Origin: a virus
Lineage: Duplodnaviria; Heunggongvirae; Uroviricota; Caudoviricetes
Strand: one strand, 5' to 3'
Virus record (IMG/VR): IMGVR_UViG_2563366802_000006
DNA length: 46,505 nt
Positions 1 through 46,211 of the stretch are shown here, in pieces (within the stretch, counting starts at the first letter, position 1; each line of letters begins with the position of its first letter). The notes below the pieces were generated by a model that was not told where the DNA came from, made no database searches, and saw only the letters and a list, made by a program, of their open reading frames with translations. The position numbers and the translations under genes were made by a program.

Positions 1-1019
1 TTACGCCTTCTTTATATCCTCCATAATTCCAGAGTGGGACATATTTGGGACATTATCACCAAAAATGTCGTCTATTTTCCTCGCATGCTCTGTCAAATGA
101 TTAGGCGCAAGGTGAGCATACCTACGAACCATTTCTATGGACTCCCATCCGCCCATTTCCTGAAGCACTGATAATGGGACGCCTGACTGAATCAGCCAGC
201 TTGCCCAGGTGTGTCTGAGGTCATGGAAACGGAAATCTTCAATTCCTGCACGACGACAAGCTGATAGCCATGATGTCTTGCTGTCGATGCGCATCTTCCT
301 GACCGCAGGCGTTGATGTTCCATCTGCTCGCTTAGCCGCCTTGGTATGTACAAACACCCATTTGTGATGCTTGCCTATTTGATCACGCAACACTTTACAG
401 GCGGTATCGTTCAGCGCCACACCAATGGCGCGGTTTGATTTGCTCTCTTCTGGATTCACCCAGGCAACTCGTCGCTGCATGTCGATTTGTTGCCATTCCA
501 GATTTATGATGTTCGACTTTCTCAGACCAGTTGCCAGCGCAAACTTGACGACAGATTTCAGTGGTTCGGGGCACTCATCAATAAGGCGTTTTGCTTCCTC
601 CTTTTCCAGCCATCTGACTCGCTTGTTTCTGACCGCTGGTATCTTGATGACAGGCGCTTTTTCCAGCCACTTCCAGTCGCGTTCTGCAGCACGGAGAATG
701 GCCTTTATCATGGCAAGATGCTTTGCCTTTGTCTGAGTTGATACTGGCTTTGGTTCATAAACAGGCGGTTCTTTACCTTTCCTGATGGCGGCCTGAACTT
801 TCTGTTTCCATATTTCTTTCGTCTTTCTGTTATGCATTCTGCTTACAGCAGAGTAAATCTTTGCCTCCGAGATATCTTTAAGCCTTATACCCTCAAAATG
901 TTCAAGCCAGAACTCAATCCGGCTTTTATCTGAATCGAGAGATTTTTTATCAGCTTTTTCCTCAAGCCATCTTAGGCAGGCCTCTTCAAAAGTGACATCA
1001 GGTAAATCCCCTAGCTTTT

Positions 1020-3600
<2,581 letters not shown>

Positions 3601-6582: not shown

Positions 6583-6715
6583 TTTTTGGGACTCCTGGCT
6601 GATTAAGTATGTCGATAAGGCGTTTCCATCCGTCACGTAATTTACGGGTGATTCGTTCAAGTAAAGATTCGGAAGGGCAGCCAGCAACAGGCCACCCTGC
6701 AATGGCATATTGCAT
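6551..6715 (-). CDS. cIII: cIII protease inhibitor
   Basis: Found by hand on the minus strand (below the 60-aa ORF-track cutoff): [54 protein letters not shown], 54 aa, matches lambda cIII. Confidence 0.85.
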   Translation of the reverse strand: MQYAIAGWPVAGCPSESLLERITRKLRDGWKRLIDILNQPGVPKNGSNTYGYPD

Positions 6716-6787
6716 GGTGTGCTCCTTATTTATACATAACGAAAAACGCCTCGAGTGAAGCGTTATTGGTATGCGGTAACGCCGCGC

Positions 6788-7165
6788 TCAGGCGGCTTTG
6801 ATAGTCATATCATCTGAATCAAATATTCCTGATGTATCGATATCGGTAATTCTTATTCCTTCGCTACCATCCATTGGAGGCCATCCTTCCTGACCATTTC
6901 CATCATTCCAGTCGAACTCACACACAACACCATATGCATTTAAGTCGCTTGAAATTGCTATAAGCAGAGCATGTTGCGCCAGCATGATTAATACAGCATT
7001 TAATACAGAGCCGTGTTTATTGAGTCGGTATTCAGAGTCTGACCAGAAATTATTAATCTGGTGAAGTTTTTCCTCTGTCATTACGTCATGGTCGATTTCA
7101 ATTTCTATTGATGCTTTCCAGTCGTAATCAATGGTAAGCGTAAACTGACCGCCGTATGTAGCCAT
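6788..7165 (-). CDS. ea10: Ea10-like protein
   Basis: 125-aa ORF in the position lambda ea10 occupies (next leftward of cIII); similar size. Confidence 0.7.
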   Translation of the reverse strand: MATYGGQFTLTIDYDWKASIEIEIDHDVMTEEKLHQINNFWSDSEYRLNKHGSVLNAVLIMLAQHALLIAISSDLNAYGVVCEFDWNDGNGQEGWPPMDGSEGIRITDIDTSGIFDSDDMTIKAA

Positions 7166-7218
7166 CAGACGAGAATTGGTAACTTAGACGCCCATCTGAT
7201 ATAGACGGACATCTAAGT

Positions 7219-7644
7219 ATGGAATTACAGGACTGGCGAAAAGAACCTCGTAAAAACTATTCGAATGAATTCAAACTTCGTATGGTGGAACTGGCATCAC
7301 AACCTGGAGCTTGTGTTGCACAGATTGCACGTGAAAATGGCGTCAATGATAATGTTATTTTCAAATGGCTCAGGCTCTGGCAGAACGAAGGGCGTGTTTC
7401 GCGGCGTCTTCCGGTAACGACCTCTTCTGACACTGGCGTTGAATTATTACCTGTAGAAATAACGCCGGATGAGCAGAAAGAACCTGTGGCGGCCATTGCG
7501 CCGTCTTTATCCACTTCCACTCAGACCAGAGTCAGTGCCAGTTCCTGCAAGGTGGAATTCCGTCACGGTAACATGACGCTGGAAAATCCATCGCCAGAGC
7601 TGCTCACAGTGTTGATCCGTGAACTGACCGGGAGGGGAAGATGA
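7219..7644 (+). CDS. IS66-family accessory protein TnpA (orf1)
   Basis: 141-aa ORF with HTH-like N-terminus; stop overlaps the next ORF. Confidence 0.8.
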   Translation: MELQDWRKEPRKNYSNEFKLRMVELASQPGACVAQIARENGVNDNVIFKWLRLWQNEGRVSRRLPVTTSSDTGVELLPVEITPDEQKEPVAAIAPSLSTSTQTRVSASSCKVEFRHGNMTLENPSPELLTVLIRELTGRGR

Positions 7645-14075: not shown

Positions 14076-14362
14076 CGGGCAAAGAGGCAATTATTCATTA
14101 CCTGGGGACGCATAATAGCTTCTGTGCGCCGGACGTTGCCGCGCTAACAGGCGCAACAGTAACCAGCATAAATCAGGCCGCGGCTAAAATGGCACGGGCA
14201 GGTCTTCTGGTTATCGAAGGTAAGGTCTGGCGAACGGTGTATTACCGGTTTGCTACCAGGGAAGAACGGGAAGGAAAGATGAGCACGAACCTGATTTTTA
14301 AGGAGTGTCGCCAGAGTGCCGCGATGAAACGGGTATTGGCGGTATATGGAGTTAAAAGATGA
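14072..14362 (+). CDS. ren: Ren (Rex-exclusion resistance)
   Basis: 96-aa ORF matching lambda Ren; overlaps the P stop. Confidence 0.9.
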   Translation: MTGKEAIIHYLGTHNSFCAPDVAALTGATVTSINQAAAKMARAGLLVIEGKVWRTVYYRFATREEREGKMSTNLIFKECRQSAAMKRVLAVYGVKR

Positions 14363-14386
14363 CCATCTACATTACTGAGCTAATAA

Positions 14387-14420
14387 CAGGCCTGCTGGTA
14401 ATCGCAGGCCTTTTTATTTG
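14387..14420 (+). terminator. tR2-like rho-independent terminator
   Basis: Hairpin AGGCCTGCTGGTAATCGCAGGCCT followed by TTTTTATTT between ren and ninB. Confidence 0.75.
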
Positions 14421-14435
14421 GGGGAGAGGGAAGTC

Positions 14436-14876
14436 ATGAAAAAACTAACCTTTGAAATTCGATCTCCAGCACATCAGCAAAACGCTATTCACGCAGTACA
14501 GCAAATCCTTCCAGACCCAACCAAACCAATCGTAGTAACCATTCAGGAACGCAACCGCAGCTTAGACCAGAATCGAAAGCTTTGGGCTTGCCTTGGTGAC
14601 GTCTCTCGTCAGGTTGAATGGCATGGTCGCTGGCTGGATGCAGAAAGCTGGAAGTGTGTGTTTACCGCAGCATTAAAGCAGCAGGATGTTGTTCCTAACC
14701 TTGCCGGGAATGGCTTTGTGGTAATAGGCCAGTCAACCAGCAGGATGCGTGTAAACGAATTTGCGGAGCTATTAGAGCTTATACAGGCATTCGGTACAGA
14801 GCGTGGCGTTAAGTGGTCAGACGAAGCGCGACTGGCTCTCGAATGGAAAGCGCGATGGGGAGATCGGGCTGCATGA
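14436..14876 (+). CDS. ninB: NinB recombination protein
   Basis: Start at ATG 14436 (MKKLTFEIRSPAHQQ...); matches lambda NinB. Confidence 0.92.
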   Translation: MKKLTFEIRSPAHQQNAIHAVQQILPDPTKPIVVTIQERNRSLDQNRKLWACLGDVSRQVEWHGRWLDAESWKCVFTAALKQQDVVPNLAGNGFVVIGQSTSRMRVNEFAELLELIQAFGTERGVKWSDEARLALEWKARWGDRAA

Positions 14877-15400
14877 CTATCAAATCAAATACGCCAGCAC
14901 ACGACAAGGACTGCTGGCAAACGCCGCTTTGGCTTTTTGATGCACTGGATATTGAGTTTGGATTCTGGCTGGATTCGGCAGCGAGCGACAAAAATGCTCT
15001 GTGCGCTCACTGGTTAACTGAGGCCGACGACGCGCTAAATTCTGAGTGGATAAGCCACGGTGCAATCTGGAATAACCCACCGTACAGCAATATCAGGCCG
15101 TGGGTGGAAAAAGCCGCCGAGCAGTGCATACAACAGCGACAGACGGTAGTTATGCTTGTGCCAGAGGATATGTCAGTCGGATGGTTCAGCAAGGCTCTGG
15201 AGAGTGTCGACGAAGTTCGCATTATCACTGATGGACGGATTAATTTTATCGAACCATCGACAGGGCTGGAGAAGAAGGGAAACAGCAAAGGCTCCATGCT
15301 GCTGATTTGGCGACCGTTCATCAGTCCTCGACGGATGTTTACTACCGTATCCAAAGCGGCATTGATGGCGATCGGGCAGGGCGTCAGGAGGGCGGCATGA
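14873..15400 (+). CDS. Phage DNA N6-adenine methyltransferase (Dam-like)
   Basis: Start at ATG 14873 overlapping the ninB stop (ATGA); NPPY-type catalytic motif (IWNNPPYS); about 175 aa. Confidence 0.8.
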
Positions 15401-16123: not shown

Positions 16124-16486
16124 GTGAATACCTACAGCATCACATTACCCTGGCCTCCGAGCAATAATCGCTATTACCGCCATAATCGCGGGCGCACGCA
16201 CGTCAGCGCAGAGGGGCAGGCATACCGCGATAACGTCGCCCGAATCATTAAAAACGCAATGCTGGATATCGGCCTGGCTATGCCTGTGAAAATCCGCATT
16301 GAGTGCCACATGCCGGATCGCCGTCGCCGTGACCTGGATAATCTGCAAAAAGCCGCTTTTGACGCACTCACTAAAGCAGGTTTCTGGCTGGATGATGCTC
16401 AGGTCGTTGATTACCGCGTTGTGAAGATGCCTGTTACCAAAGGTGGGAGGCTGGAACTGACCATCACCGAAATGGGGAATGAATGA
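16124..16486 (+). CDS. rusA: RusA Holliday-junction resolvase
   Basis: 120-aa ORF matching DLP12 RusA ([23 protein letters not shown]...). Confidence 0.95.
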
Positions 16487-16623
16487 TGTTTGAGTTTAAT
16501 ATGGCAGAACTTCTTCGCCACCGCTGGGGGCGTCTGCGCTTATATCGTTTCCCCGGCTCTGTTTTGACCGATTACCGAATACTGAAGAATTACGCCAAAA
16601 CACTGACAGGAGCAGGAGTATGA
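16483..16623 (+). CDS. ylcG: YlcG-like small protein
   Basis: 46-aa ORF found by hand ([46 protein letters not shown]), overlapping the rusA stop; DLP12 synteny. Confidence 0.75.
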
Positions 16624-16708
16624 AGTCAGAGATAACAATCAACTAATACTGTTTTGTTGATTTTTGCTTGTAATTGGCGTTCTGGTCTGAGTTTTGTGGA
16701 GTAAGTTG

Positions 16709-17092
16709 ATGCGTGATATTCAGATGGTTCTTGAGCGTTGGGGAGCGTGGGCGGCTAATAATCATGAAGATGTGACCTGGTCGTCCATTGCCGCCGGTTT
16801 TAAGGGATTAATTCCTTCAAAAGTAAAATCTCGCCCGCAATGTTGTGACGATGACGCGATGATCATTTGCGGGTGCATGGCCCGTCTGAAAAAGAACAAC
16901 AGCGATTTGCACGATTTATTAGTAGATTATTATGTAGTCGGTATGACATTCATGTCACTGGCAGGTAAGCATTGCTGCTCTGATGGTTATATCGGGAAAA
17001 GGTTACAAAAGGCTGAGGGCATAATTGAAGGGATGTTAATGGCATTAGATATCCGGTTAGAGATGGATATCGTTGTTAATAACTCTAATTAA
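16709..17092 (+). CDS. quuD: Late-gene antiterminator Q (phage 21/82-type, QuuD-like)
   Basis: Start at ATG 16709 ([22 protein letters not shown]...); matches DLP12 QuuD as I recall it. Confidence 0.9.
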
Positions 17093-17111
17093 TATGCCAA
17101 TTGTTTACTAA

Positions 17112-17281
17112 AAATTATTAAAAATGGGGCGTTGAGACGCCCCCAAAAATAAAGGGTAATATATAACAGAAGGTTTATATAGTTAGAAGCAAGGTTGTGC
17201 TTCTAAAGGAAGTGGCTTGAGGGAGCCACTTATATGTTGGGGAGGCAACGCCTCCCGCAACATATCTTTTTCGTAATCAGA
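17112..17281 (-). ncRNA. ipeX: Candidate IpeX-like small RNA: multi-hairpin 3' region of the porin gene ending in a terminator
   Basis: Four consecutive minus-strand stem-loops downstream of the nmpC stop, the last (GGGGGCGTCTCAACGCCCC) followed by a T-run; the DLP12 sRNA IpeX is, to my recollection, derived from this nmpC-quuD interval. Confidence 0.4.
17232..17277 (+). terminator. tR'-like rho-independent terminator downstream of Q
   Basis: Long perfect stem ATATGTTGGGGAGGC-AACG-CCTCCCGCAACATAT followed by CTTTTTCG. Confidence 0.75.
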
Positions 17282-18364
17282 TTAGAACTGGTAAACCAGA
17301 CCTACAGCAACGATGTCATCAGTATCAATACCAGCTGTTTTGGTAAACTTACTATCGTCAATTAAGTTGATTTTGTAATCAACAAAAGTGGACATGTTTT
17401 TATTAAAGTAGTAAGTAGCACCGACATCGACATACTTGACTAAGTCTCGGTCACCATGAACACCAAGGTCTTTACCTTTTGACTGAAGGTAAGCAACAGA
17501 TGGGCGCAGACCGAAGTCAAACTGATATTGTGCTACTGCTTCAAAGTTTTGTGCTTTGTTTGCAATATGGTTATTACCAAAAACGGTCATATTCTGAGTT
17601 TCAGAATATGTGGTAGCCAGATAGATATTGTTCGCATCATATTTCAGGCCTGCAGCCCATACTTCCGCATTTTTGCCGGAGGCATTGAATTTGCTCTTAC
17701 CATAGGCGACCTGACCGTCAGTGCGATCTGATTTAGCATAGGTTGCACCCACGCCGAATCCTTCATACTCATAAGTAGTGGAGAAACCGAAACCATCACC
17801 ATTGGCTTCAGTTACGTCAGTGCGGTCATTTTTACCCTGATACTGAGCAGCAAAGTTCAGGCCATCGACCAGACCAAAGAAGTCGTTGTTACGATAAGTT
17901 GCAACACCAGTAGTGCGACCAGTCATGAACACATCTGTTTGGGTCCAGGTATCACCACCGAATTCTGGCAGGACGTCAGTCCACGCACCGATGTCGTATG
18001 CTACACCGTAGTTACGGCCGTAATCGATTGAGCCGTAATCACCAAATTTCAGGCCTGCAAATGCAAGACGGGTTTTGTCTTTGGAAGAACCTTGAGATTC
18101 AGCGCGGTTGCCTTTGAATTCATATTCCCACTGACCGAAACCAGTCAGTTGATCGTTGATTTGGGTTTCACCTTTGAAGCCAAGACGGGCATAAGTAGTA
18201 TCACCATCATCTGCATCATTAGAGGAGAAGTAGTGCTTAGCATTAACTTTCCCGTACAGATCCAGCTTGTTACTGTCTTTATTATAAATTTCAGCTGCCT
18301 GAGCAGACATCGCCATCAGTACTGATGCAGCTACAGCAGAAATTGCCACTGTTAATTTTTTCAT
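17282..18364 (-). CDS. nmpC: Outer-membrane porin, OmpC/OmpF/PhoE family (NmpC-like), apparently intact
   Basis: 360-aa ORF with signal peptide [23 protein letters not shown] and C-terminal ...VAVGLVYQF; located between Q and the holin as in DLP12. Confidence 0.93.
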
Positions 18365-18792
18365 CGTGAGCCCTTTTTTTTGAACTATTATTAAAAAATG
18401 ATGTCACTGCGCGATAAATATTCATCTAATCAATGTGATTATTTCAAGATGTAAGTTTTGGTTTCTCGTTTAATTTGTGAAGTAGATCTCTATTTTTATC
18501 TGAACTTTTTTCTATCGAATCCTATTCATGGCTCTTGGCTGAATAAAAATAAATCTATTAGCCAATTTATATTAATGGCTGTTATTTATAAGTGCTCTAT
18601 AATTTGAAGGTTCAATTTAAATTGGCTAAAAATAACGCTGGAAATTATTTGTTGGTTATTTGTTGAGATTTGCTTATGTATTTGTAGTGGTGTTTTCAAT
18701 ACTCGGTAGCATTCTCGCAAATATCATTTAGTGGTTTACGTACGTAAAAAATTGGTTATGCTGTTAAGAGTGGTTACTTCGTCACACAGCTT

Positions 18793-18826
18793 AAACCCGC
18801 CGTCGAGCGGGTTTTTCCATTTTTTG
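18793..18826 (+). terminator. Rho-independent terminator candidate about 110 bp upstream of the holin gene
   Basis: Hairpin AAACCCGCCGTCGAGCGGGTTT followed by TTCCATTTTTT on the + strand. Confidence 0.5.
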
Positions 18827-18937
18827 AGTCTCGATATTAGCTGATAACCCAATACCTGAGTTATTCACTGACTCCGAGTCTGTTACGTTTCGTAGTATTC
18901 CCTCAATTTACACCCGCTTTGTCTGCGAGGTGGGGTT

Positions 18938-19153
18938 ATGCAATCCATGGATAAGTTAACAACGGGTGTCGCCTATGGCACCTCAGCAGGTAGTGCCGGG
19001 TACTGGTTTTTACAGCTGCTAGATAAAGTCACGCCCTCACAGTGGGCGGCAATTGGAGTGCTGGGTAGCCTGGTATTTGGCCTGCTGACGTACCTGACAA
19101 ACCTTTATTTCAAGATTAAAGAAGACAAGCGTAAGGCTGCACGGGGAGAGTAA
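18938..19153 (+). CDS. essD: Pinholin (phage 21 S21 family) with dual-start motif
   Basis: 71-aa [74 protein letters not shown]; Met1 and Met4 give the antiholin/holin pair. Confidence 0.92.
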
Positions 19154-19157
19154 TTCA

Positions 19158-19502
19158 ATGACTCAAAACTATGAACTGATTGTGAAAGGGATCCGCAATT
19201 TTGAGAATAAAGTTACGGTAACTTTAGCGTTACGGGACAAAAAACGCTTTGACGGTGAAATTTTTGACCTGGACATCTCGCTGGACCGTGTTGAAGGTGC
19301 CGCGCTGGAGTTTTATGAGGCAGCAGCCAGAAGGAGCATCAGACAGGTCTTCCTGGATGTTGCTGCCGGGTTATGTGAAGGGGATGAGCTGTCGCCGGAA
19401 AAGCGCCCCATAATTTTAGAGGCGCAGAATGTGTGGATAACCTACAAAGGAAAGCTACCGGGAAGAATTACTGGTTCTCTGAAGACTCCGCCGAAATGGT
19501 AA
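19158..19502 (+). CDS. Hypothetical protein between holin and endolysin (position of Qin ydfR, DUF1327)
   Basis: 114-aa ORF starting 5 nt after the holin stop; assignment to the YdfR family is by position only. Confidence 0.5.
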   Translation: MTQNYELIVKGIRNFENKVTVTLALRDKKRFDGEIFDLDISLDRVEGAALEFYEAAARRSIRQVFLDVAAGLCEGDELSPEKRPIILEAQNVWITYKGKLPGRITGSLKTPPKW

Positions 19503-19746
19503 TTTCACCAGCATATTTTTCTTCCAGTAATACCGCCAGCCACTTGAAAGAATTTTGTTGTTGCTGGGACCATTTGGGGTTGAGTGATTCAAGCTGGAGC
19601 GATGCCAGTGTTGGTTGCATTTGTTCCTTGGGAATTGAGAATGCCAGATATGAAAATGCGACAGTAAGGGCATTTACATCATCCCGAAGCCTGGAAATGC
19701 AGTCGAGCAACTCCTGTAGAGAAATGGTGCTATTGTCCATAAACAA
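19468..19746 (-). CDS. Hypothetical small protein (92 aa), convergent with the preceding ORF
   Basis: ORF only; fills the gap before the endolysin; no family recognised. Confidence 0.3.
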   Translation of the reverse strand: MFMDNSTISLQELLDCISRLRDDVNALTVAFSYLAFSIPKEQMQPTLASLQLESLNPKWSQQQQNSFKWLAVLLEEKYAGEITISAESSENQ

Positions 19747-19845
19747 TCCTCTCTATTGTATTTAACTATTCCTTGCCTGATTCAACAGGCCGGGACAGAT
19801 AAACATATCCAGGGTTCAGAAACCGATAAATCCTGATAAATATCC

Positions 19846-20379
19846 ATGAACGCAAAAATCAGATACGGCCTGTCGGCTGCCGTTCTGGCACTGATTGCCG
19901 TCGGTGCGCCTGCGCCTGATATTCTCGACCAGTTTCTGGATGAAAAAGAAGGTAACCACACAACGGCATACCGCGATGGTTCCGGCATCTGGACCATCTG
20001 TCGGGGTGCCACGGTGGTGGATGGAAAACCCGTTTTTCCCGGTATGAAACTGTCGAAGGAAAAATGCGACCAGGTTAACGCCATTGAACGGGATAAGGCG
20101 CTGGCATGGGTGGAGCGCAATATTAAAGTGCCACTGACCGAACCACAGAAAGCGGGTATCGCGTCATTTTGTCCCTATAACATTGGCCCCGGTAAGTGTT
20201 TCCCGTCGACGTTTTATAAGCGGCTGAATGCCGGTGATCGTAAAGGTGCATGCGAGGCGATTCGCTGGTGGATAAAAGATGGTGGGCGCGATTGCCGCAT
20301 ACGTTCAAATAACTGCTATGGACAGGTTATTCGTCGTGACCAGGAAAGCGCATTAGCCTGTTGGGGGATAGATCAGTGA
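19846..20379 (+). CDS. SAR endolysin (T4-lysozyme fold, GH24)
   Basis: N-terminal Gly/Ala-rich signal-anchor-release segment ([17 protein letters not shown]) and catalytic E-8-D-5-T triad ([16 protein letters not shown]); the expected partner of a pinholin. Confidence 0.9.
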
Positions 20380-20834
20380 GCAGAGTCGCCGCGATTATTT
20401 ATGCTCTGGTTATCTGCATCATCGTCTGCCTGTCATGGGCTGTTAATCATTACCGTGATAACGCAATCGCCTACAAAGAGCAGCGCGATAACAAGGCCAG
20501 TGAACTGGAGAAGGCGAACGCCACCATCGCTGACATGCGGAAGCGTCAACGTGATGTAGCAGAACTCGACGCAAGATACACAAAGGAGCTTGCTGATGCT
20601 AACGCGACTATCGAAAGTCTCCGTGCTGATGTTTCTGCTGGGCGTAAGCGCCTGCAAGTCGCCGCCACCTGTGCAAAGTCAACGACCGGAGCCAGCGGCA
20701 TGGGCGATGGAGAAAGCCCAAGACTTACAGCAGATGCTGAACTCAATTATTACCGTCTCCGAAGTGGAATCGACAAGATAACCGCGCAGGTTAACTACCT
20801 GCAGGAATACATCAGGACGCAATGCCTGAAATAA
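20376..20834 (+). CDS. Rz: Rz i-spanin
   Basis: GTG start overlapping the endolysin stop ([29 protein letters not shown]...), matching DLP12 RzpD; N-terminal transmembrane segment and coiled coil. Confidence 0.88.
20590..20781 (+). CDS. Rz1: Rz1 o-spanin lipoprotein, embedded in the +1 frame of Rz
   Basis: Signal peptide with lipobox (LLGVSAC) followed by a proline-rich segment ([13 protein letters not shown]); wholly inside Rz. Exact start uncertain. Confidence 0.7.
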
Positions 20835-20864
20835 TTTTTTTGCAAATCACAAAGTCCATTTAAT

Positions 20865-20891
20865 GAGCCTCGCGATGCGGGGCTTTTTTTA
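20865..20891 (+). terminator. Rho-independent terminator candidate after Rz
   Basis: Hairpin AGCCTCGCGATGCGGGGCT followed by TTTTTTT. Confidence 0.55.
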
Positions 20892-21039
20892 CATCTGAAT
20901 TTCACAGCGCATCTCACGCGCATATTACATCACCCGAGCCTTTCAGAAAGTTGAGCCTGAGAACTGCCGTATATGGTGGCGACCATCTCGGGGCGGCTTT
21001 TCTGTGAGACAGGCTCACTTTCTAAAAGGTAAAGACGCT

Positions 21040-21528
21040 ATGAACCAATTAGAAGAAAAGCTTCAAAGAATGATTTCCTTATACAAGGAAGATAACTGCC
21101 AAAAAGTTCCTGAAAACATCGCAGAGTTAATGGAATTGGCAAGTGAATTTTCTGGCATGCTTAAGTCGTCAGGTGTTCGGTCAGCGTTCTTTGTTGAAAT
21201 GCTGATGCACGGCGGACTTATGGCAACAATGAGACGTGTAATGGAAGACCAGAGAAAAGAACCTCCTCAGGTATACGTTTTGTCATCGAAGAAAACTGGG
21301 CTAACCAAAATTGGGTATTCATCCAACATTCCACAACGCATCAAATCGCTTGGCAACTCTGGACCAGACTGCTTGAAGCTTGAGTGCCTGATCCCTGGTG
21401 GAAGAGAAACTGAAAACATGCTTCATCGCAAATTTGCCGCAAAGAGAAAGCACGGTGAATGGTTCGCCCTGTCCAAGGATGACATTGAGGGATTGAAATC
21501 TGTAGCGATTACTTCTGATGGCTATTAA
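21040..21528 (+). CDS. T5orf172 / GIY-YIG-like domain protein (moron)
   Basis: Start chosen at ATG 21040 (MNQLEEKL...); C-terminal half has the T5orf172-type pattern VYVLSSKKTGLTKIGYSSNIPQRIKSL...HGEWFALS. Confidence 0.6.
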   Translation: MNQLEEKLQRMISLYKEDNCQKVPENIAELMELASEFSGMLKSSGVRSAFFVEMLMHGGLMATMRRVMEDQRKEPPQVYVLSSKKTGLTKIGYSSNIPQRIKSLGNSGPDCLKLECLIPGGRETENMLHRKFAAKRKHGEWFALSKDDIEGLKSVAITSDGY

Positions 21529-22206
21529 TGCTTGTTTAGAGCAATTTTCATAACAACTCTTCATTACAAAGCCCATCTACTGGTGGGCTTGATAATGAAA
21601 CCGTGATTTACATCCCCACAATCCGGGTATGTAAAAGATAGTTCAGGCGAGAACGGATTTAACTAAATCTGTGCGCCACCAGTTAACGGCAGTACCACGA
21701 AACAACCCAAGCCAGTAAGTGGGGAAATAACACCGGCAGCCACTGAAAGATGAACCTCCTGCCTTATGGCAAAAAAGATTCTTTGTGGTGGTGGACTGAT
21801 GGAAAGACATCCTAATTTCAGCCAAACATTGAAGGAGTTGTTATGTCAGCAGAAGGTTTCAATAACCCATCAAAATTCCGGGATGAGTGGGATAGCAGCG
21901 TAAAGAGTAAGTGATGCCATCACAAAAGCCATTCCCTACAGAGTGGCTTTGATAATGGCTTATACCCTACACGGGATAACTTAACTGATATCCCTTTTAA
22001 AGGATAAAGGTATTCAAGCCTGACACATCATGCGCTGTATCGTCGCCGTGTTCCCGTATTAACAGAGACCGTAGCCCGACGGGGAACTCCTTCTGCGCGA
22101 GTGTGCGGGAATAATCAAAAACGATGCACACCGGGGTTACCGGGTACACATATTTCATCATGCCAGCGAGTCCGGTTCTGGCACGGAAGAAACCGGACGT
22201 TATGAT

Positions 22207-22617
22207 TTAGTGCGGAAATATTTGTGTAGTGTTCTGAATGTTCTCAGTAAAGAGTAATGAATTATCAAAGGTATAGTAATACCTTTTGTTTTCGTGGATA
22301 TTTGTAATCCATCTGAAAACCCCTGCTGTAGCAAGATTTTTCCTGTATTCGTAAAATGATAACTCTCCTGATTTGAATCCTTTTAAGGTGGCTTCTATAA
22401 GGCATTTATTTTTTGAAAATCTTACATTTACAACCTTACCCTGTCCTTTTATTAAAACCGTATTATCGTTTTCAAGAACAAGATGAATATTCTCTGTGGC
22501 TAAATAGTAAATGTAATGTGAGACATTGTGACGTTTTAGTTCAGAATAAAACCAGTGATAGTTTAAATTATTTCGCACTTTATCGAATATTTGTTTAAAA
22601 ATGGCAACCTGAGCCAT
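22207..22617 (-). CDS. ybcV: YbcV-like protein (DUF1398), low-GC moron
   Basis: Start at [45 protein letters not shown]...; resembles DLP12 YbcV as I recall it. Confidence 0.7.
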
Positions 22618-22674
22618 TGTAGTACCTTCCATGTGATATGAGGGGGCGTAGTCTGCACGATTATCTAGATTGCT

Positions 22675-22908
22675 TCAATCTGGTCTAACCTGTTTTCTGA
22701 GCAATTCAGTAATGTCACTCTTTTCTTTGTTTGCTTCAGGCGAAACTCTTTTTTCTGAGCACAGTCTCCGGCGGCAGGCTTCAATGACCCAGGCTGAGAA
22801 ATTCCCGGACCCTTTTTGAACAAGAGCGATGTTAATTTGTTCAATCATTTGGTTAGGAAAGCGGATGTTGCGGGTTGTTGTTCTGCGGGTTCTGTTCTTC
22901 GTTGACAT
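22675..22908 (-). CDS. ylcI: YlcI-like protein (DUF3950)
   Basis: 77-aa MSTKNRTRRTTTRNIRFPNQMIEQINIALVQKGSGNFSAWVIEACRRRL...; the ORF-track extension to 23181 runs across cos and is not used. Confidence 0.7.
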   Translation of the reverse strand: MSTKNRTRRTTTRNIRFPNQMIEQINIALVQKGSGNFSAWVIEACRRRLCSEKRVSPEANKEKSDITELLRKQVRPD

Positions 22909-23039
22909 GAGGTTGTCCCGTATTCTGTGTTGCTGATTTGTATTGTCTGAAGTTTTTTTTACGTTAAGTTGATGCAGATCAATTAATACGATACCTGCGT
23001 CATAATTGATTATTTGACGTGGTTTGATGGCGTAGATGC

Positions 23040-23290
23040 ACGTTGTGACATGTAGATGATAATTATTATCATTTTGCGGGTCCTTTCCGGCGATCCGACA
23101 GGTTACGGGGCGGCGACCTCGCGGGTTTTCGCTATTTATGAAAATTTTCCGGTTTAAGGCGTTTCCGTTCTTCTTCGTCATAACTTAATGTTTTTATTTA
23201 AAATACCCTCTGAAAAGAAAGGAAACGACAGGTGCTGAAAGCGAGCTTTTTGGCCTCTGTCGTTTCCTTTCTCTGTTTTTGTCCGTGGAA
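23040..23290. promoter_or_regulatory. cos packaging site (cosQ-cosN-cosB); cosN 12-nt cohesive end GGGCGGCGACCT at 23108-23119
   Basis: Sequence from 23108 onward (GGGCGGCGACCTCGCGGGTTTTCGCTATTTATGAAAATTTTCCGG...) matches the left end of the lambda genome as I recall it. Confidence 0.92.
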
Positions 23291-23296
23291 TGAACA

Positions 23297-23816
23297 ATGG
23301 AAGTCAACAAAAAGCAGCTGGCTGACATTTTCGGCGCGAGTATCCGTACCATTCAGAACTGGCAGGAGCAGGGAATGCCCGTTCTGCGGGGTGGTGGGAA
23401 GGGTAATGAGGTGCTTTATGATTCTGCCGCCGTCATAAAATGGTATGCCGAAAGGGATGCTGAAATTGAGAACGAAAAGCTGCGCCGGGAAGTTGAAGAA
23501 CTGCGGCAGGCCAGCGAGACAGATCTCCAGCCAGGGACTATTGAGTACGAACGCCATCGACTTACGCGTGCGCAGGCCGACGCACAGGAGCTGAAAAATG
23601 CCAGAGACTCCGCTGAAGTGGTGGAAACCGCATTCTGTACTTTCGTGCTGTCGCGGATCGCAGGTGAAATTGCCAGTATTCTCGACGGGATCCCCCTGTC
23701 GGTGCAGCGGCGTTTTCCGGAACTGGAAAACCGACATGTTGATTTCCTGAAACGGGATATCATCAAAGCCATGAACAAAGCAGCCGCGCTGGATGAACTG
23801 ATACCGGGGTTGCTGA

Positions 23817-23842
<26 letters not shown>
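23297..23842 (+). CDS. nu1: Terminase small subunit Nu1
   Basis: 181-aa ORF near-identical to lambda Nu1. Confidence 0.97.
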
Positions 23843-27523
<3,681 letters not shown>

Positions 27524-27543
<20 letters not shown>

Positions 27544-28842
27544 TCTCCCGCATATTGCCAGTATGGCCTTTAATGAGCCGCTGATGCTTGAACCCGCCTA
27601 TGCGCGGGTTTTCTTTTGTGCGCTTGCAGGCCAGCTTGGGATCAGCCGCCTGACGGATGCGGTGTCCGGCGACAGCCTGACTGCCGGAGAGGCACCCGCG
27701 GCGCTGGCGTTATCCGTTGATGATGACGGACCACGACAGGCCCGCAGTTATCAGGTCATGAACGGCATCGCCGTGCTGCCGGTGTCCGGCACGCTGGTCA
27801 GCCGGACGCGGGCGCTGCAGCCGTATTCGGGGATGACCGGTTACAACGGCATTATCGCCGTCTGCAACAGGCTGCCAGCGATCCGATGGTGGACGGCATT
27901 CTGCTGGATATGGACACACCGGGCGGGATGGTGGCGGGAGCATTTGACTGTGCTGACATCATCGCCCGTGTGCGAGACATAAAACCGGTATGGGCGCTGG
28001 CCAACGACATGAACTGCAGTGCAGGTCAGCTGCTTGCCAGCGCCGCCTCCCGGCGTCTGGTCACGCAGACCGCCCGGACAGGCTCCATCGGCGTCATGAT
28101 GGCTCACAGTAATTACGGTGCTGCGCTGGAGAAACAGGGCGTGGAAATCACGCTGATTTACAGCGGCAGCCATAAGGTGGATGGCAACCCCTACAGCCAT
28201 CTACCGGATGATGTCCGGGAAACACTGCAGTCCCGGATGGATGCAACCCGCCGGATGTTTGCACAGAAGGTGTCGGCATATACCGGCCTGTCCGTGCAGG
28301 CTGTGCTGGATACCGAGGCTGCAGTGTACAGCGGTCAGGAGGCCATTGATGCCGGACTGGCTGATGAACTTGTGAACAGTACCGATGCGATCACCGTCAT
28401 GCGTGATGCACTGGATGCACGTAAATCCCGTCTCTCAGGAGGGCGAATGACCAAAGAGACTCAATCAACAACTGTTTCAGCCACTGCTTCGCAGGCTGAC
28501 GTTACTGGCGTGGTGCAAGCGACGGAGGGCGAGAACGCCAGCGCTGCGCAGCCGGACGTGAACGCGCAGATCACCGCAGCGGTTGCGGCAGAAAACAGTC
28601 GCATTATGGGGATCCTCAACTGTGAGGAGGCTCACGGACGCGAAGAACAGGCATGCGTGCTGGCCGAAACCCCCGGTATGACCGTGGAAACGGCCCGCCG
28701 TATTCTGGCCGCAGCACCACAGAGTGCACAGGCGCGCAGTGACACTGCGCTGGATCGTCTGATGCAGGGGGCACCGGCACCGCTGGCTGCAGGTAACCCG
28801 GCATCTGATGCCGTTAACGATTTGCTGAACACACCAGTGTAA
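27524..28842 (+). pseudogene. C: Head protease/scaffold C, disrupted by a 1-bp deletion in a C-run near 27857-27860
   Basis: N-terminal part reads in one frame to a stop at 27982 and the C-terminal part continues in another frame from 27886; lambda has ATCGCCCGTCTG where this sequence has ATCGCCGTCTG. Confidence 0.75.
28255..28842 (+). CDS. nu3: Scaffolding protein Nu3 (nested in the C-terminal frame of C); start approximate
   Basis: C-terminal frame of C is intact; the internal start was not determined precisely. Confidence 0.4.
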   Translation: MFAQKVSAYTGLSVQAVLDTEAAVYSGQEAIDAGLADELVNSTDAITVMRDALDARKSRLSGGRMTKETQSTTVSATASQADVTGVVQATEGENASAAQPDVNAQITAAVAAENSRIMGILNCEEAHGREEQACVLAETPGMTVETARRILAAAPQSAQARSDTALDRLMQGAPAPLAAGNPASDAVNDLLNTPV

Positions 28843-42172: not shown

Positions 42173-42772
42173 ATGCGTAAATTATGTGCTGTTATTCTGT
42201 CCGCAGTAGTCTGGCTGGTTGCCGCTGGTACGCCAGCGAGCGCAGCAGAGCATCAGTCCACACTAAGCGCCGGGTATCTTCAGACCCATACTGATATGCC
42301 AGGCAGTGATGACCTGAAGGGCATTAACGTGAAATACCGTTATGAATTTACGGACACGCTGGGGCTGGTGACGTCATTCAGTTATGCCAATGCCAAAGAT
42401 GAGCAAAAAACGCATTACAGCGATACCCGCTGGCATGAAGATTCAGTGCGTAACCGCTGGTTCAGCATGATGGCGGGGCCATCTGTACGCGTGAATGAAT
42501 GGTTCAGTGCTTATGCGATGGCAGGTGTGGCTTACAGCCGTGTTTCGACGTTCTCCGGGGATTATCTCCGCGTAACTGACAACAAGGGGAAAACGCACGA
42601 TGTGCTGACCGGAAGTGATGACGATCGCCACAGCAACACGTCTCTGGCGTGGGGAGCTAGCGTGCAGTTTAACCCGACCGAATCCGTGGCCATTGATATT
42701 GCTTATGAAGGCTCCGGCAGTGGCGACTGGCGCACTGACGGTTTCATCGTGGGTGTCGGTTATAAATTCTGA
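42173..42772 (+). CDS. lom: Lom outer-membrane protein (Ail/Lom/PagC family)
   Basis: 199-aa ORF with signal peptide and beta-barrel signature ending ...GFIVGVGYKF; matches lambda Lom. Confidence 0.93.
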   Translation: MRKLCAVILSAVVWLVAAGTPASAAEHQSTLSAGYLQTHTDMPGSDDLKGINVKYRYEFTDTLGLVTSFSYANAKDEQKTHYSDTRWHEDSVRNRWFSMMAGPSVRVNEWFSAYAMAGVAYSRVSTFSGDYLRVTDNKGKTHDVLTGSDDDRHSNTSLAWGASVQFNPTESVAIDIAYEGSGSGDWRTDGFIVGVGYKF

Positions 42773-45496: not shown

Positions 45497-46201
45497 ATGG
45501 CTACATCGACAGTAATTCCGGGAGACATCACCACGCTGAAGGGAGATGTCAGTAAAGCGAAGGAAGATATTTCCTCAATTAACAGTAAAGTATCAACGCT
45601 TCAGACTGATATGACCAGTGCAAAGCAGGATATCAGCTCCAGATACACAAAAACTGAAGTTGATAATAAGCTGAAAAACAAAGTGGAAGTGAACGATCTG
45701 GAAAGTGGTCGTTATGGCGGAGATTTTTATCCACTGACAGGTCGTGAAGCGTTTTATTTATGGAATTTGGCCACGACTACAGCGGCGGCAAACCTTTATC
45801 TTAATCCTGACCCTGCAATTTCGTCTGTACTGCGGTCAACATCGTCTATCCGCTATAAGCATTCAGTAGAGACGATAGATTCAGAGCACGCCGATCTCAT
45901 TTTCAGGATGCGCCCTGTATGGTACAGGTCACAATGCGAAAATGACAGGCGTGACTGGGGATTCTACGGATTGATTGCCGAGGAAGTAGGAGAAATTGCC
46001 CCTCAGTTTGTACACTGGCGATCAGCTAACGAAGATGATGCACGGGAAGCTATTTCCAGCAATGGCCTTGTTGCCGAAGGTGTAATGTACGAACGTCTGG
46101 TTGTTCCACTGATTCACCATATCCAGAAACTGACCGAAAGAGTTGATGAACTTGAGTCAGAATTGAAGTTGTTATCAACTTCCCGAAGCGATATCGGATA
46201 A
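45497..46201 (+). CDS. Hypothetical protein with C-terminal Peptidase_S74-like intramolecular chaperone domain and N-terminal coiled coil
   Basis: C-terminal pattern SSIRYKHSVETI...WGFYGLIAEEVGEIAPQFV...YERLVVPLIHHIQKLTERVDELESEL fits the endosialidase/tail-fibre chaperone domain consensus; N-terminal heptad-like region. Confidence 0.55.
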   Translation: MATSTVIPGDITTLKGDVSKAKEDISSINSKVSTLQTDMTSAKQDISSRYTKTEVDNKLKNKVEVNDLESGRYGGDFYPLTGREAFYLWNLATTTAAANLYLNPDPAISSVLRSTSSIRYKHSVETIDSEHADLIFRMRPVWYRSQCENDRRDWGFYGLIAEEVGEIAPQFVHWRSANEDDAREAISSNGLVAEGVMYERLVVPLIHHIQKLTERVDELESELKLLSTSRSDIG

Positions 46202-46211
46202 AGGAGGAGTA

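What the first reader, a model, noticed from the sequence alone, without database searches (positions are those of the whole stretch)
21040..21528. T5orf172/GIY-YIG-like moron at the Rz-to-cos position
Between Rz and cos, where lambda and DLP12 carry bor, this prophage encodes a roughly 160-aa protein whose C-terminal half has the T5orf172-type nuclease-like motif pattern. Standalone nuclease-like morons here may act in superinfection exclusion or host modulation.
Basis: partly seen in the sequence, partly recalled or inferred. Interest (0 to 1): 0.52.

Follow-up and report, generated by a model that had tools for sequence, protein, structure and literature searches.

The report
Nuclease gene cassette after phage lysis genes
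The prophage really does carry a small, already-annotated nuclease-type gene where lambda carries bor, but its function is untested, and the more unusual feature is an unannotated, conserved RNA hairpin just upstream that probably keeps this gene, and the other genes that can occupy this position, weakly translated.

Summary
Bases 21040-21528 (+) encode a 162-aa protein. Residues 78-151 match Pfam MUG113 (E 6e-15) and T5orf172 (E 2.8e-10). The gene sits between Rz and the terminase genes, where DLP12 has borD.

It is not new as an object. RefSeq calls the identical protein "GIY-YIG nuclease family protein". Phages HK106 (gp64) and Chlobot carry it, and epsilon34 gp68 is a 33%-identical relative in the same position. 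No functional study was found.

The putative catalytic residues (Y79, K90, R100, E125, H129, E140) are invariant down to 20% identity. Both domains are under purifying selection. The N-terminal domain is an acidic three-helix bundle with no known family and no recognisable DNA-binding domain.

The "prophage-expressed moron" reading is not supported. The gene points with the late operon, follows an intrinsic terminator, and has no sigma-70 promoter match. A 145-nt leader, better conserved than the gene, folds into a covariation-supported hairpin that buries the ribosome-binding site.

The same leader heads Rha, ANT/KilAC, KilA-N-like, HNH and membrane-protein genes in other phages. It also travels with this nuclease gene into a tail-gene site.

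Best reading: a mobile, tightly throttled, late-expressed nuclease cassette. Whether it homes, competes or defends is undecided.

The parts
20865..20892 (+). Intrinsic terminator just after the Rz stop codon (stem-loop 20865-20885 followed by a T-run). It forms the 5' edge of the cassette header.
   Evidence: Found by the terminator scan (9-pair stem, 6 GC pairs, T-run). The same element is annotated as a rho-independent terminator in HK106 and epsilon34. An equivalent terminator also precedes the cassette in the tail-gene slot of L011.
20898..21046 (+). Conserved structured leader (the whole covariance-model match). It is non-coding and unannotated in RefSeq.
   Evidence: Model R1 scores 147 bits on the + strand and 33 bits on the - strand. 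The leader is near-identical upstream of genes whose proteins are only 33% identical. It is present in 906 of 5426 E. coli genomes with no annotated feature under most of the listed matches. No Rfam family matches.
20907..20921 (+). Leader hairpin P1 (GCGC-N7-GCGC).
   Evidence: Seen in the MFE fold and the RNAalifold consensus. Three of its four pairs show changes on both sides in the 66 distinct sequences.
20938..21030 (+). Leader long branched hairpin P2. Its 3' arm (ACUUUCUAAAAGG) contains the Shine-Dalgarno sequence AAGG at 21026-21029.
   Evidence: MFE is -50.5 kcal/mol with z = -3.4 against shuffles. Of the 33 predicted pairs, 98.7% of cells are paired and 22 pairs show double changes, against 4.9 +/- 1.3 in shuffles (0/500) and 3-9 in slid controls. 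Diverged leaders (Klebsiella, P0014) keep this helix through compensatory changes; the P0016 leader, which the covariance model does not recognise, also folds into a long helix over its ribosome-binding site, and the tail-slot P0013 leader keeps a long helix that ends just 5' of it.
21040..21528 (+). ORF of 162 aa (stop codon included): a T5orf172/MUG113-domain protein identical to RefSeq WP_016245257.1, named 'GIY-YIG nuclease family protein'.
21040..21264 (+). N-terminal domain, residues 1-75: three long helices, acidic (pI 5.4), with no known family.
21271..21492 (+). C-terminal T5orf172/MUG113 domain, residues 78-151: basic (pI 9.4), with the putative active site Y79, K90, R100, E125, H129 and E140.
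   Evidence: Pfam matches. These residues are invariant in 17 sequences down to 20% identity and in 39 sequences. The AF2 C-domain model has pLDDT 89 with b-b-a-b-a-b-a topology.
21560..21599 (+). Imperfect 16-bp-arm palindrome just after the stop codon. It looks like a terminator but has no T-run, and is probably the 3' boundary of the cassette.
   Evidence: Inverted repeat I2 and direct repeats D2/D9. A second copy lies at 21916-21959 (I1).

Best explanation
This is a mobile accessory-gene cassette in the late operon of a defective lambdoid prophage. It consists of an intrinsic terminator, a roughly 145-nt structured leader, an ORF and a trailing hairpin.

The ORF encodes a probably active T5orf172-type endonuclease, a branch of the GIY-YIG superfamily. 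Its basic catalytic domain is joined to a family-specific acidic three-helix N-terminal domain in place of a recognisable DNA-binding domain.

Shown: the domain identity; the invariance of the putative catalytic residues; purifying selection on both domains; the co-orientation with late genes; the upstream terminator; the conserved, covarying leader helix that contains the Shine-Dalgarno sequence; the sharing of that leader by alternative cassettes; and the occurrence of the same terminator-leader-nuclease unit at another late-operon site.

Inferred: the gene is silent in the lysogen. It is transcribed only when Q-modified RNA polymerase reads through the Rz terminator. It is then translated at a low level because the leader must first be opened or processed, for example by RNase III acting on the roughly 20-bp helix. 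The nuclease then acts on DNA in the lytically growing cell, most likely on competing related phage or satellite genomes. Breaks next to the shared leader and downstream homology would favour copying of the cassette, as in homing. The N-terminal domain would provide dimerisation or target and partner recognition.
For: Identity: Pfam MUG113 and T5orf172 score above their cutoffs, and the identical protein is annotated in RefSeq, HK106 and Chlobot.

Active site kept: Y79, K90, I91, G92, R100, E125, H129, E140, W141 and F142 are invariant down to 20% identity. T5orf172 nucleases depend on the equivalent glutamate in Odn (PMC10448857, citing PMC8263062). The GIY-YIG nuclease domain of SNIPE likewise depends on a predicted catalytic glutamate (E414A abolishes defence; PMC13190303).

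Functional protein: dN is 0.17 and dS above 1.5 against the Klebsiella gene. dN is 0.12 and dS about 2 between P0014 and P0013. The same holds in both domains.

Late, throttled expression: terminator at 20865-20885 and no promoter match. Curated phage annotations agree. The leader fold has z = -3.4 and pairs the Shine-Dalgarno sequence. Covariation gives 22 of 33 pairs with double changes and 0/500 shuffles reaching that value. Many U-G pairs fit only the sense strand. The Rha gene, the commonest occupant behind this leader, is described as a late-operon gene that harms phage growth when de-regulated (PMC4936722).

Mobility: 82 of 5426 E. coli genomes carry the gene, all at 99% identity or more, and two copies are truncated. 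Other phages carry Rha, ANT/KilAC, KilA-N-like, HNH_3 or membrane-protein genes behind the same leader. An 80%-class relative, together with terminator and leader, is inserted between the tail tube and tail chaperone genes, where a related Providencia phage has a 67-bp gap.

The cassette combines with at least four terminase types. Its GC content is 0.43 against 0.52 in the flanks. These traits match the genomic signatures that Barth et al. use for T5orf172 homing endonuclease genes: variable presence, truncated alleles, and position next to essential genes (PMC10448857).
Against: No DNA-binding domain was found. In Barth et al., 87% of T5orf172 homing endonucleases have zinc-finger DNA-binding domains (PMC10448857). 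Here the N-domain is acidic, has no Pfam match, and resembles only generic helical bundles.

Strong purifying selection and few decayed alleles are not typical of a purely selfish homing gene.

The leader is mostly attached to non-nuclease genes: Rha follows it in 97 of 121 cases. Cassette exchange therefore does not need this nuclease.

The structural link to GIY-YIG is only suggestive. The best Foldseek hits are GIY-YIG proteins, but with E 0.3-3 and TM 0.43-0.47.

Absence of a consensus promoter does not prove absence of prophage expression. Nuclease activity, target, timing and any RNase III involvement were not measured.

Distant homologues lie beside Bro-N or KilA-N genes, one of them between the P2-type replication gene A and the ogr/portal genes; I equate that region with the P2 tin/old defence hotspot from memory, and if so this fits defence as well.
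Confidence: 0.42

Rival explanations
1. It is a prophage-encoded anti-phage defence or abortive-infection nuclease. In this reading the protein is kept silent or inactive by the terminator, the leader and the N-terminal domain. It is unleashed when another phage infects, or when the cell is doomed, and then degrades invading or cellular DNA.
For: There is a weak domain-level match to the PADLOC candidate PDC-S57 (E 7e-6). A 26%-identical Vibrio homologue, paired with a Bro-N gene, lies between gene A and ogr/portal of a P2-like prophage; I identify that region as the P2 tin/old defence hotspot from my own knowledge. Related GIY-YIG-type nuclease domains do act in defence, as in SNIPE (PMC13190303). 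The ORF is intact and identical in this IS-riddled, defective prophage and in 80 other genomes. Tight silencing is what one expects for a toxic effector.
Against: No promoter was found for expression in the lysogen. The gene is oriented with the late operon and lies behind a terminator. It has none of the SNIPE features: no transmembrane segment and no DUF4041. PDC-S57 is only a candidate and the match covers the shared domain alone. The 99% or greater identity among E. coli copies is too recent to show selection for retention in the host.
Confidence: 0.27
2. It is a regulator or partner of the Bro-N/KilA-N/Rha class rather than a DNA-cutting enzyme. In this reading the T5orf172 domain binds DNA or a protein, and the gene is functionally interchangeable with the Rha or antirepressor genes that occupy the same slot.
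For: Rha, ANT/KilAC and KilA-N-like genes sit behind the same leader in other phages. Distant homologues lie directly beside KilA-N or Bro-N genes. T5orf172 was first described as a domain shuffled with Bro-N and KilA-N in viral regulators (Iyer, Koonin and Aravind 2002, from my own knowledge). The representative of one Salmonella cluster (P0002) has G at the catalytic E140 position.
Against: All six putative catalytic residues are invariant across the family down to 20% identity. That is hard to explain without catalysis. Characterised T5orf172 proteins are nucleases (PMC8263062 and PMC10448857). An HNH_3 endonuclease also occupies the slot, so the slot is not restricted to regulators.
Confidence: 0.13
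3. It is a helper of DNA packaging or concatemer processing, comparable to the HK97 gp74 HNH protein that sits next to cos and stimulates terminase, or to a branch-resolving nuclease.
For: The gene lies just upstream of cos and the terminase genes and is probably expressed late. In HK106 it is immediately followed by the gp74-like HNH gene.
Against: The same gene combines with at least four unrelated terminase types, including lambda Nu1/A, which needs no such helper. It is absent from most relatives of each phage. Close relatives sit between tail genes instead.
Confidence: 0.06

Closest known systems
HK106 gp64 (YP_007151734.1), the phage Chlobot homologue, and epsilon34 gp68 (YP_002533529.1)
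   Same: HK106 gp64 (99.4% identical) and the Chlobot protein (100% identical) are orthologues. Epsilon34 gp68 is a 33%-identical family member. HK106 gp64 and epsilon34 gp68 sit in the same place, after Rz and its terminator, with the same leader and orientation; the Chlobot record starts at the gene, so its upstream side cannot be seen.
   Different: Nothing differs for the orthologues. None has been studied experimentally: the epsilon34 genome paper does not discuss the gene (PMC2629481). HK106 pairs it with an HK97-type HNH/terminase module, whereas this prophage has lambda-type nohD and gpA.
T5orf172 homing endonuclease genes of ICP1, T5-like and other phages (Barth, Dunham and Seed 2023, PMC10448857)
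   Same: They share the nuclease domain family. They are also free-standing genes with variable presence among close relatives, occasional truncated alleles, and positions next to essential late genes.
   Different: Those proteins carry CapR, DUF723 or DUF4397 zinc-finger domains, or RepA_N DNA-binding domains, and 87% have zinc fingers. This protein has an acidic three-helix domain with no detectable DNA-binding fold. Homing has not been shown for either group.
ICP1 Odn, an origin-directed nuclease (PMC8263062)
   Same: It is a phage-encoded T5orf172 nuclease whose activity depends on the conserved glutamate, and it is used against a competing mobile element.
   Different: Odn obtains its specificity from a RepA_N domain copied from its target. 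No such domain or target homology is present here.
SNIPE (DUF4041 plus a GIY-YIG-type nuclease; PMC13190303)
   Same: It has a GIY-YIG-type nuclease domain, a catalytic glutamate is essential (E414A), and it is toxic when mislocalised.
   Different: SNIPE is a membrane-anchored host defence protein with a transmembrane helix and DUF4041. This protein is small and soluble, has neither feature, and is encoded in a phage late operon.
Rha (Phage_pRha) genes of phi80, P22 and many lambdoid phages
   Same: Rha genes occupy the same slot behind the same leader, and they are by far the commonest occupant (97 of 121). They are late-operon genes whose over-expression harms the phage (PMC4936722).
   Different: The protein family is unrelated (Bro-N-like DNA-binding domain, no nuclease).
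lambda bor and DLP12 borD
   Same: They are accessory genes in the Rz-to-cos slot.
   Different: bor lies on the opposite strand. It is a lipoprotein expressed from the prophage (my own knowledge). There is no sequence or functional relation.
Regulated free-standing endonuclease genes of T-even phages (I-TevI, seg and mob genes)
   Same: From my own knowledge (work of the Belfort and Edgell laboratories): these are GIY-YIG or HNH genes whose ribosome-binding sites are sequestered in hairpins, and which carry their own transcriptional signals, so that expression is late and low.
   Different: The phages, leader sequences and nuclease subfamilies differ. Those proteins have defined DNA-binding domains.

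Membership tests
Pfam T5orf172 (PF10544) / MUG113 (PF13455) | The profile HMM match must exceed the curated gathering score. | tested here: met
   MUG113 scores 56 bits (cutoff 22.3, E 6e-15). T5orf172 scores 41 bits (cutoff 20, E 2.8e-10).
GIY-YIG nuclease superfamily | A sequence match to the canonical GIY-YIG catalytic-domain model (PF01541). | tested here: not met
   E is 0.19 at 12.5 bits, against a cutoff of 22.6, and only residues 77-104 align. A family profile search against PDB finds only the UvrC N-terminal domain 1yd3 at E 1.5. Membership therefore rests on the T5orf172/MUG113 families being placed in that superfamily (PMC10448857).
GIY-YIG nuclease superfamily | Catalytic motif residues: Tyr in strand 1 (GIY), a second motif (YIG), Arg in helix 1 and a metal-binding Glu. 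| tested here: met
   Y79 (VYVL), K90-I91-G92 (KIG, where Lys replaces the second Tyr as is usual in T5orf172), R100 and E140 (GEWF), together with E125 and H129, are invariant in 17 and in 39 diverse sequences. The correspondence to I-TevI residues is by motif order, not by a significant alignment.
GIY-YIG nuclease superfamily | The alpha/beta fold: a three-stranded sheet flanked by helices. | tested here: inconclusive
   The AF2 C-domain model has pLDDT 89 and b-b-a-b-a-b-a topology. The best Foldseek PDB hits are GIY-YIG proteins: 1zg2, Slx1 7cq4 and I-TevI 1ln0. Their scores are not significant, with E 0.3-3.2 and TM 0.43-0.47.
Homing endonuclease gene (free-standing) | A nuclease domain joined to a sequence-specific DNA-binding domain. 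| tested here: not met
   The nuclease domain is present. The other domain has no Pfam match, is acidic, and resembles only generic helical bundles.
Homing endonuclease gene (free-standing) | Sporadic presence among close relatives, a position next to conserved essential genes, and decayed alleles. | tested here: met
   The gene is in 82 of 5426 E. coli genomes, and other cassettes occupy the same slot elsewhere. It sits next to the terminase genes or between the tail tube and chaperone genes. An empty site exists in a Providencia phage. Truncated alleles P0012 and P0015 and two truncated genomic copies were found. However, omega is below 0.1.
Homing endonuclease gene (free-standing) | Cleavage of the cassette-less allele near the insertion site, and super-Mendelian inheritance in mixed infection. 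| not testable with these tools
   This needs biochemistry and phage crosses.
Moron (Juhala et al. 2000 sense) | An extra gene between genes that are adjacent in relatives, with atypical base composition. | tested here: met
   GC content is 0.43 against about 0.52.
Moron (Juhala et al. 2000 sense) | Its own promoter and terminator, giving expression from the repressed prophage. | tested here: inconclusive
   No sigma-70-like site scoring 9/12 or better lies between 20893 and 21039. The annotators of HK106 and epsilon34 marked none. The terminator is upstream rather than downstream, and the downstream hairpin lacks a T-run. Expression itself was not measured.
Known anti-phage defence systems (PADLOC-DB v2; SNIPE) | A match to a validated system's protein models and its domain architecture. 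| tested here: not met
   The only match is to the candidate PDC-S57, at E 7e-6 over the shared domain. There is no transmembrane segment or DUF4041 as in SNIPE.
Rfam RNA families (for the leader) | A covariance-model match at the family's gathering score. | tested here: not met
   No family reaches even half of its gathering score in 20830-21070 or in 18000-24000.

The most novel reading that the evidence does not exclude
The 145-nt leader (20898-21046) may belong to an undescribed family of cis-acting structured RNAs that head exchangeable accessory-gene cassettes in lambdoid phage late operons. Each unit would comprise a terminator, a short hairpin and a long branched hairpin that buries the ribosome-binding site. 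This header would have two roles. It would hold toxic cargo (Rha, antirepressor-like proteins, T5orf172 and HNH nucleases) silent in lysogens and weakly translated in lytic growth. It would also provide the conserved homology at which cassettes are swapped precisely at the start codon, and it moves with the cargo to new sites. The nuclease cargo may in turn drive that swapping.
Probability: 0.4. Interest if true: 0.62.

Novelty: new member of a known kind. Interest (0 to 1): 0.4.

Why it matters
The gene alone matters little. It is an annotated but unstudied member of a very large nuclease superfamily. Knowing that it is probably late-expressed and throttled mainly corrects the expectation that it is a lysogenic-conversion or exclusion factor.

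The context is more useful. About one in six complete E. coli genomes carries the unannotated leader. It heads at least six kinds of cargo, and it shows good covariation support. If it is a translational or processing switch, it would explain how lambdoid phages carry toxic accessory genes inside the late operon. It would also explain how these genes are exchanged so cleanly.

The leader also gives a simple handle for experiments, through leader-reporter fusions and mixed infections of HK106 with and without the gene. These could test whether T5orf172 genes in temperate phages behave as homing elements.

Tried and rejected
1. Sequence search of the full protein, and of a family profile, against PDB found no real relative; the best was the UvrC N-terminal domain at E 1.5.

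3. NCBIfam gave no match. PADLOC matched only a candidate family weakly.

4. Pfam gave nothing for the N-domain alone.

5. Rfam gave nothing at permissive thresholds on the region or on the leader.

6. Literature searches found no experimental work on this subfamily, on HK106 gp64 or on epsilon34 gp68. Brenes and Laub 2025 on E. coli prophage defence genes and Henthorn and Friedman 1995 on rha are not held in the library. Whether either mentions this gene or the leader is therefore unknown.

7. A MAFFT alignment of the leaders put half the sequences out of register and gave misleading pair counts. It was replaced by a covariance-model alignment.

8. The packaging-helper idea was rejected because the cassette pairs with at least four terminase types.

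9. The 224-aa and 174-aa versions of the protein in databases (P0001, P0003) were rejected as over-extended start calls. Their extensions run through the leader, which carries 1-2-nt indels between variants.

10. A leader promoter (TTCACA-16-TATTAC) was considered. It lacks the conserved final T of the -10 element, its -35 is not conserved in HK106 or epsilon34, and hairpin P1, which would lie upstream of its start site, covaries.
Full report
**1. What is there**

The + strand ORF runs from ATG 21040 to stop 21526-21528 and encodes 162 aa. Pfam places residues 78-151 in MUG113 (E 6e-15) and T5orf172 (E 2.8e-10). Both score well above their curated cutoffs. The generic GIY-YIG model misses its cutoff at E 0.19. 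PHROG 4284, of unknown function, matches end to end. NCBIfam has nothing. PADLOC gives only a weak domain-level match to the candidate PDC-S57.

The window is a lambdoid prophage whose gene coordinates coincide with E. coli 3359, NZ_CP103739.1, positions 1418105-1464609. The local gene order is:
- essD, ydfR, lysozyme and Rz
- this gene
- DUF1398 (-) and YlcI/YnfO (-)
- nohD, the large terminase subunit, and the head and tail genes

In K-12 DLP12 the same slot between rzpD and ybcV holds borD on the other strand.

**2. It is already in the databases**

RefSeq annotates the identical protein (WP_016245257.1) as "GIY-YIG nuclease family protein". The gene is present in 82 of 5426 complete E. coli genomes, always at 99% identity or more and in single copy; two copies are truncated. 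Phage HK106 gp64 (99.4% identical) and phage Chlobot (100%) carry it, HK106 in the same place after Rz. Salmonella phage epsilon34 gp68 is a 33%-identical relative in the same position. I found no experimental work on any of them.

**3. The protein**

AlphaFold gives a confident two-domain model with pLDDT 87.
- Residues 1-75 form three long helices. This domain is acidic, with pI 5.4.
- Residues 76-162 form a b-b-a-b-a-b-a domain. This domain is basic, with pI 9.4.

An exhaustive HMMER search of 1.84 billion representatives finds 38,349 proteins sharing the C-terminal domain. Only about 15 representatives also share the N-terminal domain, and nearly all are 160-190 aa long.

In an alignment of 17 such proteins, down to 20% identity, the invariant positions are Y79, K90, I91, G92, R100, E125, L128, H129, E140, W141 and F142. 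The same set is invariant in 39 broader sequences. By motif order these correspond to the GIY / (K)IG / Arg / Glu active site of GIY-YIG enzymes. The equivalent glutamate is essential in the T5orf172 nuclease Odn (PMC10448857, citing PMC8263062), and a predicted catalytic glutamate is essential in the GIY-YIG nuclease domain of SNIPE (PMC13190303).

Pairwise dN/dS is far below 1 in both domains. The window gene against the Klebsiella gene gives dN 0.17 and dS above 1.5. P0014 against P0013 gives dN 0.12 and dS about 2.

The structural test of GIY-YIG membership is only suggestive. With a C-domain-only model (pLDDT 89), the best PDB matches are GIY-YIG proteins (1zg2, Slx1 and I-TevI). Their scores are not significant, at E 0.3-3 and TM 0.43-0.47.

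The N-domain has no Pfam family and resembles only generic helical bundles. I see no DNA-binding fold. This separates the protein from the T5orf172 homing endonucleases surveyed by Barth et al., 87% of which have zinc-finger domains (PMC10448857).

**4. Where relatives sit**

The positions are as follows (percentages are identity to the window protein).
- Between the lysis genes and the terminase genes: HK106 and epsilon34, as well as a Klebsiella variicola prophage (76%; here the gene is followed by an overlapping Endonuclease_NS gene) and the P0014 group (49%).
- Between the tail tube gene and the tail chaperone genes: P0013 (51% to the window protein, but about 80% to P0014). A related Providencia phage has only a 67-bp gap at this point.
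- Between other tail genes: P0016.
- In Vibrio P2-like prophages and in metagenomic phages, distant members (20-27%) lie directly next to KilA-N or Bro-N genes. One lies between replication gene A and the ogr/portal genes. From my own knowledge, I take that region to correspond to the P2 tin/old hotspot.

The E. coli cassette is found with at least four unrelated terminase systems. That rules out a dedicated packaging role.

**5. The upstream region is the surprise**

Between the Rz terminator (stem 20865-20885 plus T-run) and the ATG there is no sigma-70-like promoter. The curated HK106 and epsilon34 records also mark only a terminator there.

These roughly 150 nt are better conserved than the gene. 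The epsilon34 leader is close to identical although its protein is only 33% identical. The Klebsiella and P0014 leaders are also recognisable.

A pattern taken from the leader hits more than 120 IMG/VR contigs. The ORF that starts right after it falls into these groups:
- Rha (Phage_pRha): 97 of 121
- this nuclease family: 14
- ANT/KilAC: 4
- a membrane protein: 2
- an HNH_3 endonuclease: 1
- KilA-N-like and other proteins

The first two codons (Met-Asn) tend to be shared, so cassettes are swapped essentially at the start codon. By megablast the leader is in 906 of 5426 E. coli genomes, with up to four copies per genome, and no annotated feature lies under most of the listed matches.

**6. The leader is a structured RNA**

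The sense strand folds with z = -3.4 into two elements:
- a short hairpin at 20907-20921
- a long branched hairpin at 20938-21030, whose 3' arm contains the Shine-Dalgarno sequence (AAGG, 21026-21029)

RNAalifold on 13 diverse leaders predicts the same 33 pairs. A covariance model built from them finds the element upstream of every enterobacterial member of the nuclease family examined except P0016 (L010). That includes the copies in the tail-gene slot (35 bits, E 6e-6). It also finds second, diverged copies in tandem in some contigs.

On the model-based alignment of 66 distinct sequences:
- 98.7% of cells are paired.
- 22 of 33 pairs show changes on both sides, against 4.9 +/- 1.3 in column shuffles (0/500) and 3-9 when the partners are slid.
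- Frequent U-G pairs fit only the sense strand.

There is a caveat: the alignment was fitted to the structure, and the search pattern fixed the inner seven pairs. However, independently folded diverged leaders (Klebsiella and P0014) keep the long helix over the ribosome-binding site with many compensatory changes. The P0016 leader, which the covariance model does not detect, also folds into such a helix, and the P0013 leader keeps a long helix that ends just 5' of the site. No Rfam family matches.

**7. How it most likely works**

Shown: a terminator, a structured leader and the ORF form a unit that occurs at more than one late-operon site. The ORF points with the late genes. The ribosome-binding site is inside a conserved helix. 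The nuclease active-site residues and both domains are under selection.

Inferred:
- The gene is off in the lysogen, because the terminator stops unmodified polymerase and the leader blocks ribosomes.
- It is transcribed by Q-modified polymerase after induction.
- It is translated at a low level, perhaps after RNase III cleavage of the roughly 20-bp helix or after some other opening event.

This fits a toxic product. It also fits what is reported for the commonest cargo, Rha, a late-operon gene that blocks phage growth when mis-regulated (PMC4936722).

For the nuclease itself I favour action on competing phage or satellite DNA during lytic growth, with homing-like copying of the cassette through the shared flanks (confidence about 0.4). 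The genomic signatures match those used for T5orf172 homing genes (PMC10448857). An HNH_3 endonuclease occupying the same slot points the same way.

The main rival is a silent defence or abortive-infection effector (about 0.27). A non-catalytic Rha-like regulatory role (about 0.13) and a packaging role (about 0.06) are less likely. The missing DNA-binding domain and the strong purifying selection are the chief arguments against simple homing.

**8. Verdict**

Its domain call is right. Its "moron for superinfection exclusion or host modulation" idea is at best partly supported.

The gene is an ordinary, already-annotated member of a known nuclease family whose function remains untested. The unannotated leader that heads this and other cassettes is the part worth following up.

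Noticed in passing
window 20898-21046 (+); also L002, L006, L011, L013, L021 and L022-L141: An unannotated structured leader of about 145 nt is shared by many different cargo genes in lambdoid phages: Rha, ANT/KilAC, KilA-N-like, HNH_3, a membrane protein and this nuclease. It is in 906 of 5426 E. coli genomes and has no Rfam family. Some viral contigs carry two diverged copies in tandem, each heading its own ORF (L022, L042, L066, L076, L102).
   Followed up: yes
window 20846-20860, 21563-21577 and 21919-21933, with hairpins at 21560-21599 and 21916-21959: A motif A-T-(C/T)-ACAAAG, followed by a hairpin, recurs three times, each time at a module boundary: after Rz, after the nuclease ORF, and about 360 nt further on. 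The second and third hairpins have 16-19-nt arms and end in GATAATG instead of a T-run. They may be degenerate terminators or recombination boundaries.
   Followed up: partly
window 21812-21940 and 21611-21671: Relative to HK106 and Chlobot, the window has an extra segment of about 129 bp. Relative to Chlobot alone it has a further 61-bp segment. Both lie in the non-coding stretch downstream of the nuclease gene, and the right-hand junction falls at the start of the right arm of the 21916-21959 hairpin.
   Followed up: no
window 21529-22206, e.g. the minus-strand ORF at 21997-22161: There are 680 bp without an annotated gene between the nuclease gene and DUF1398. A 54-aa minus-strand ORF in this stretch lies in sequence that is about 98% identical in Chlobot, where it coincides with one of two short minus-strand CDS annotated as hypothetical proteins, and partly conserved in DLP12. 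It is not annotated in RefSeq.
   Followed up: no
window 612-2413, 14357-15054, 16242-18658, 45525-46505 and 27524-28842: The prophage is defective. IS100, IS1 (inside a porin gene), ISEc23 and IS5 are inserted, the first three between the integrase and the lysis genes and IS5 beyond the tail-fibre genes at the far end of the window. The S49 head protease gene is frameshifted. The ISEc23 and IS1 insertions separate Q and its late promoter from the lysis genes and from this cassette.
   Followed up: partly
window 6640-7221 and 42173-42772: The prophage carries other accessory genes with known or suspected prophage-expressed roles: a sieB-like superinfection exclusion gene and an Ail/Lom-family outer-membrane protein gene.
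   Followed up: no
protein P0002 (Salmonella cluster representative, 98% identical): This protein has glycine at the putative catalytic glutamate (E140G, KHGGWF). It could be an inactivated allele or a sequencing variant.
   Followed up: no
L013 6001-7187 (Klebsiella variicola prophage): The 76%-identical homologue is followed by a 232-aa Endonuclease_NS (non-specific DNA/RNA nuclease) gene that overlaps it by 4 bp. This suggests a two-nuclease operon in that phage.
   Followed up: no
L014 6229-7492, L016 7001-8154 and L018 7001-8679: Distant family members (20-27% identical) in Vibrio P2-like prophages and in metagenomic phages are immediately adjacent to KilA-N or Bro-N domain genes. These are the domain families found fused to T5orf172 in other viral proteins.
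   Followed up: partly
proteins P0001 (224 aa) and P0003/P0004 (174 aa): Database versions of this protein with N-terminal extensions come from start codons called inside the terminator or leader. The leader has 1-2-nt indels between variants, so these extensions are annotation artefacts.
   Followed up: partly
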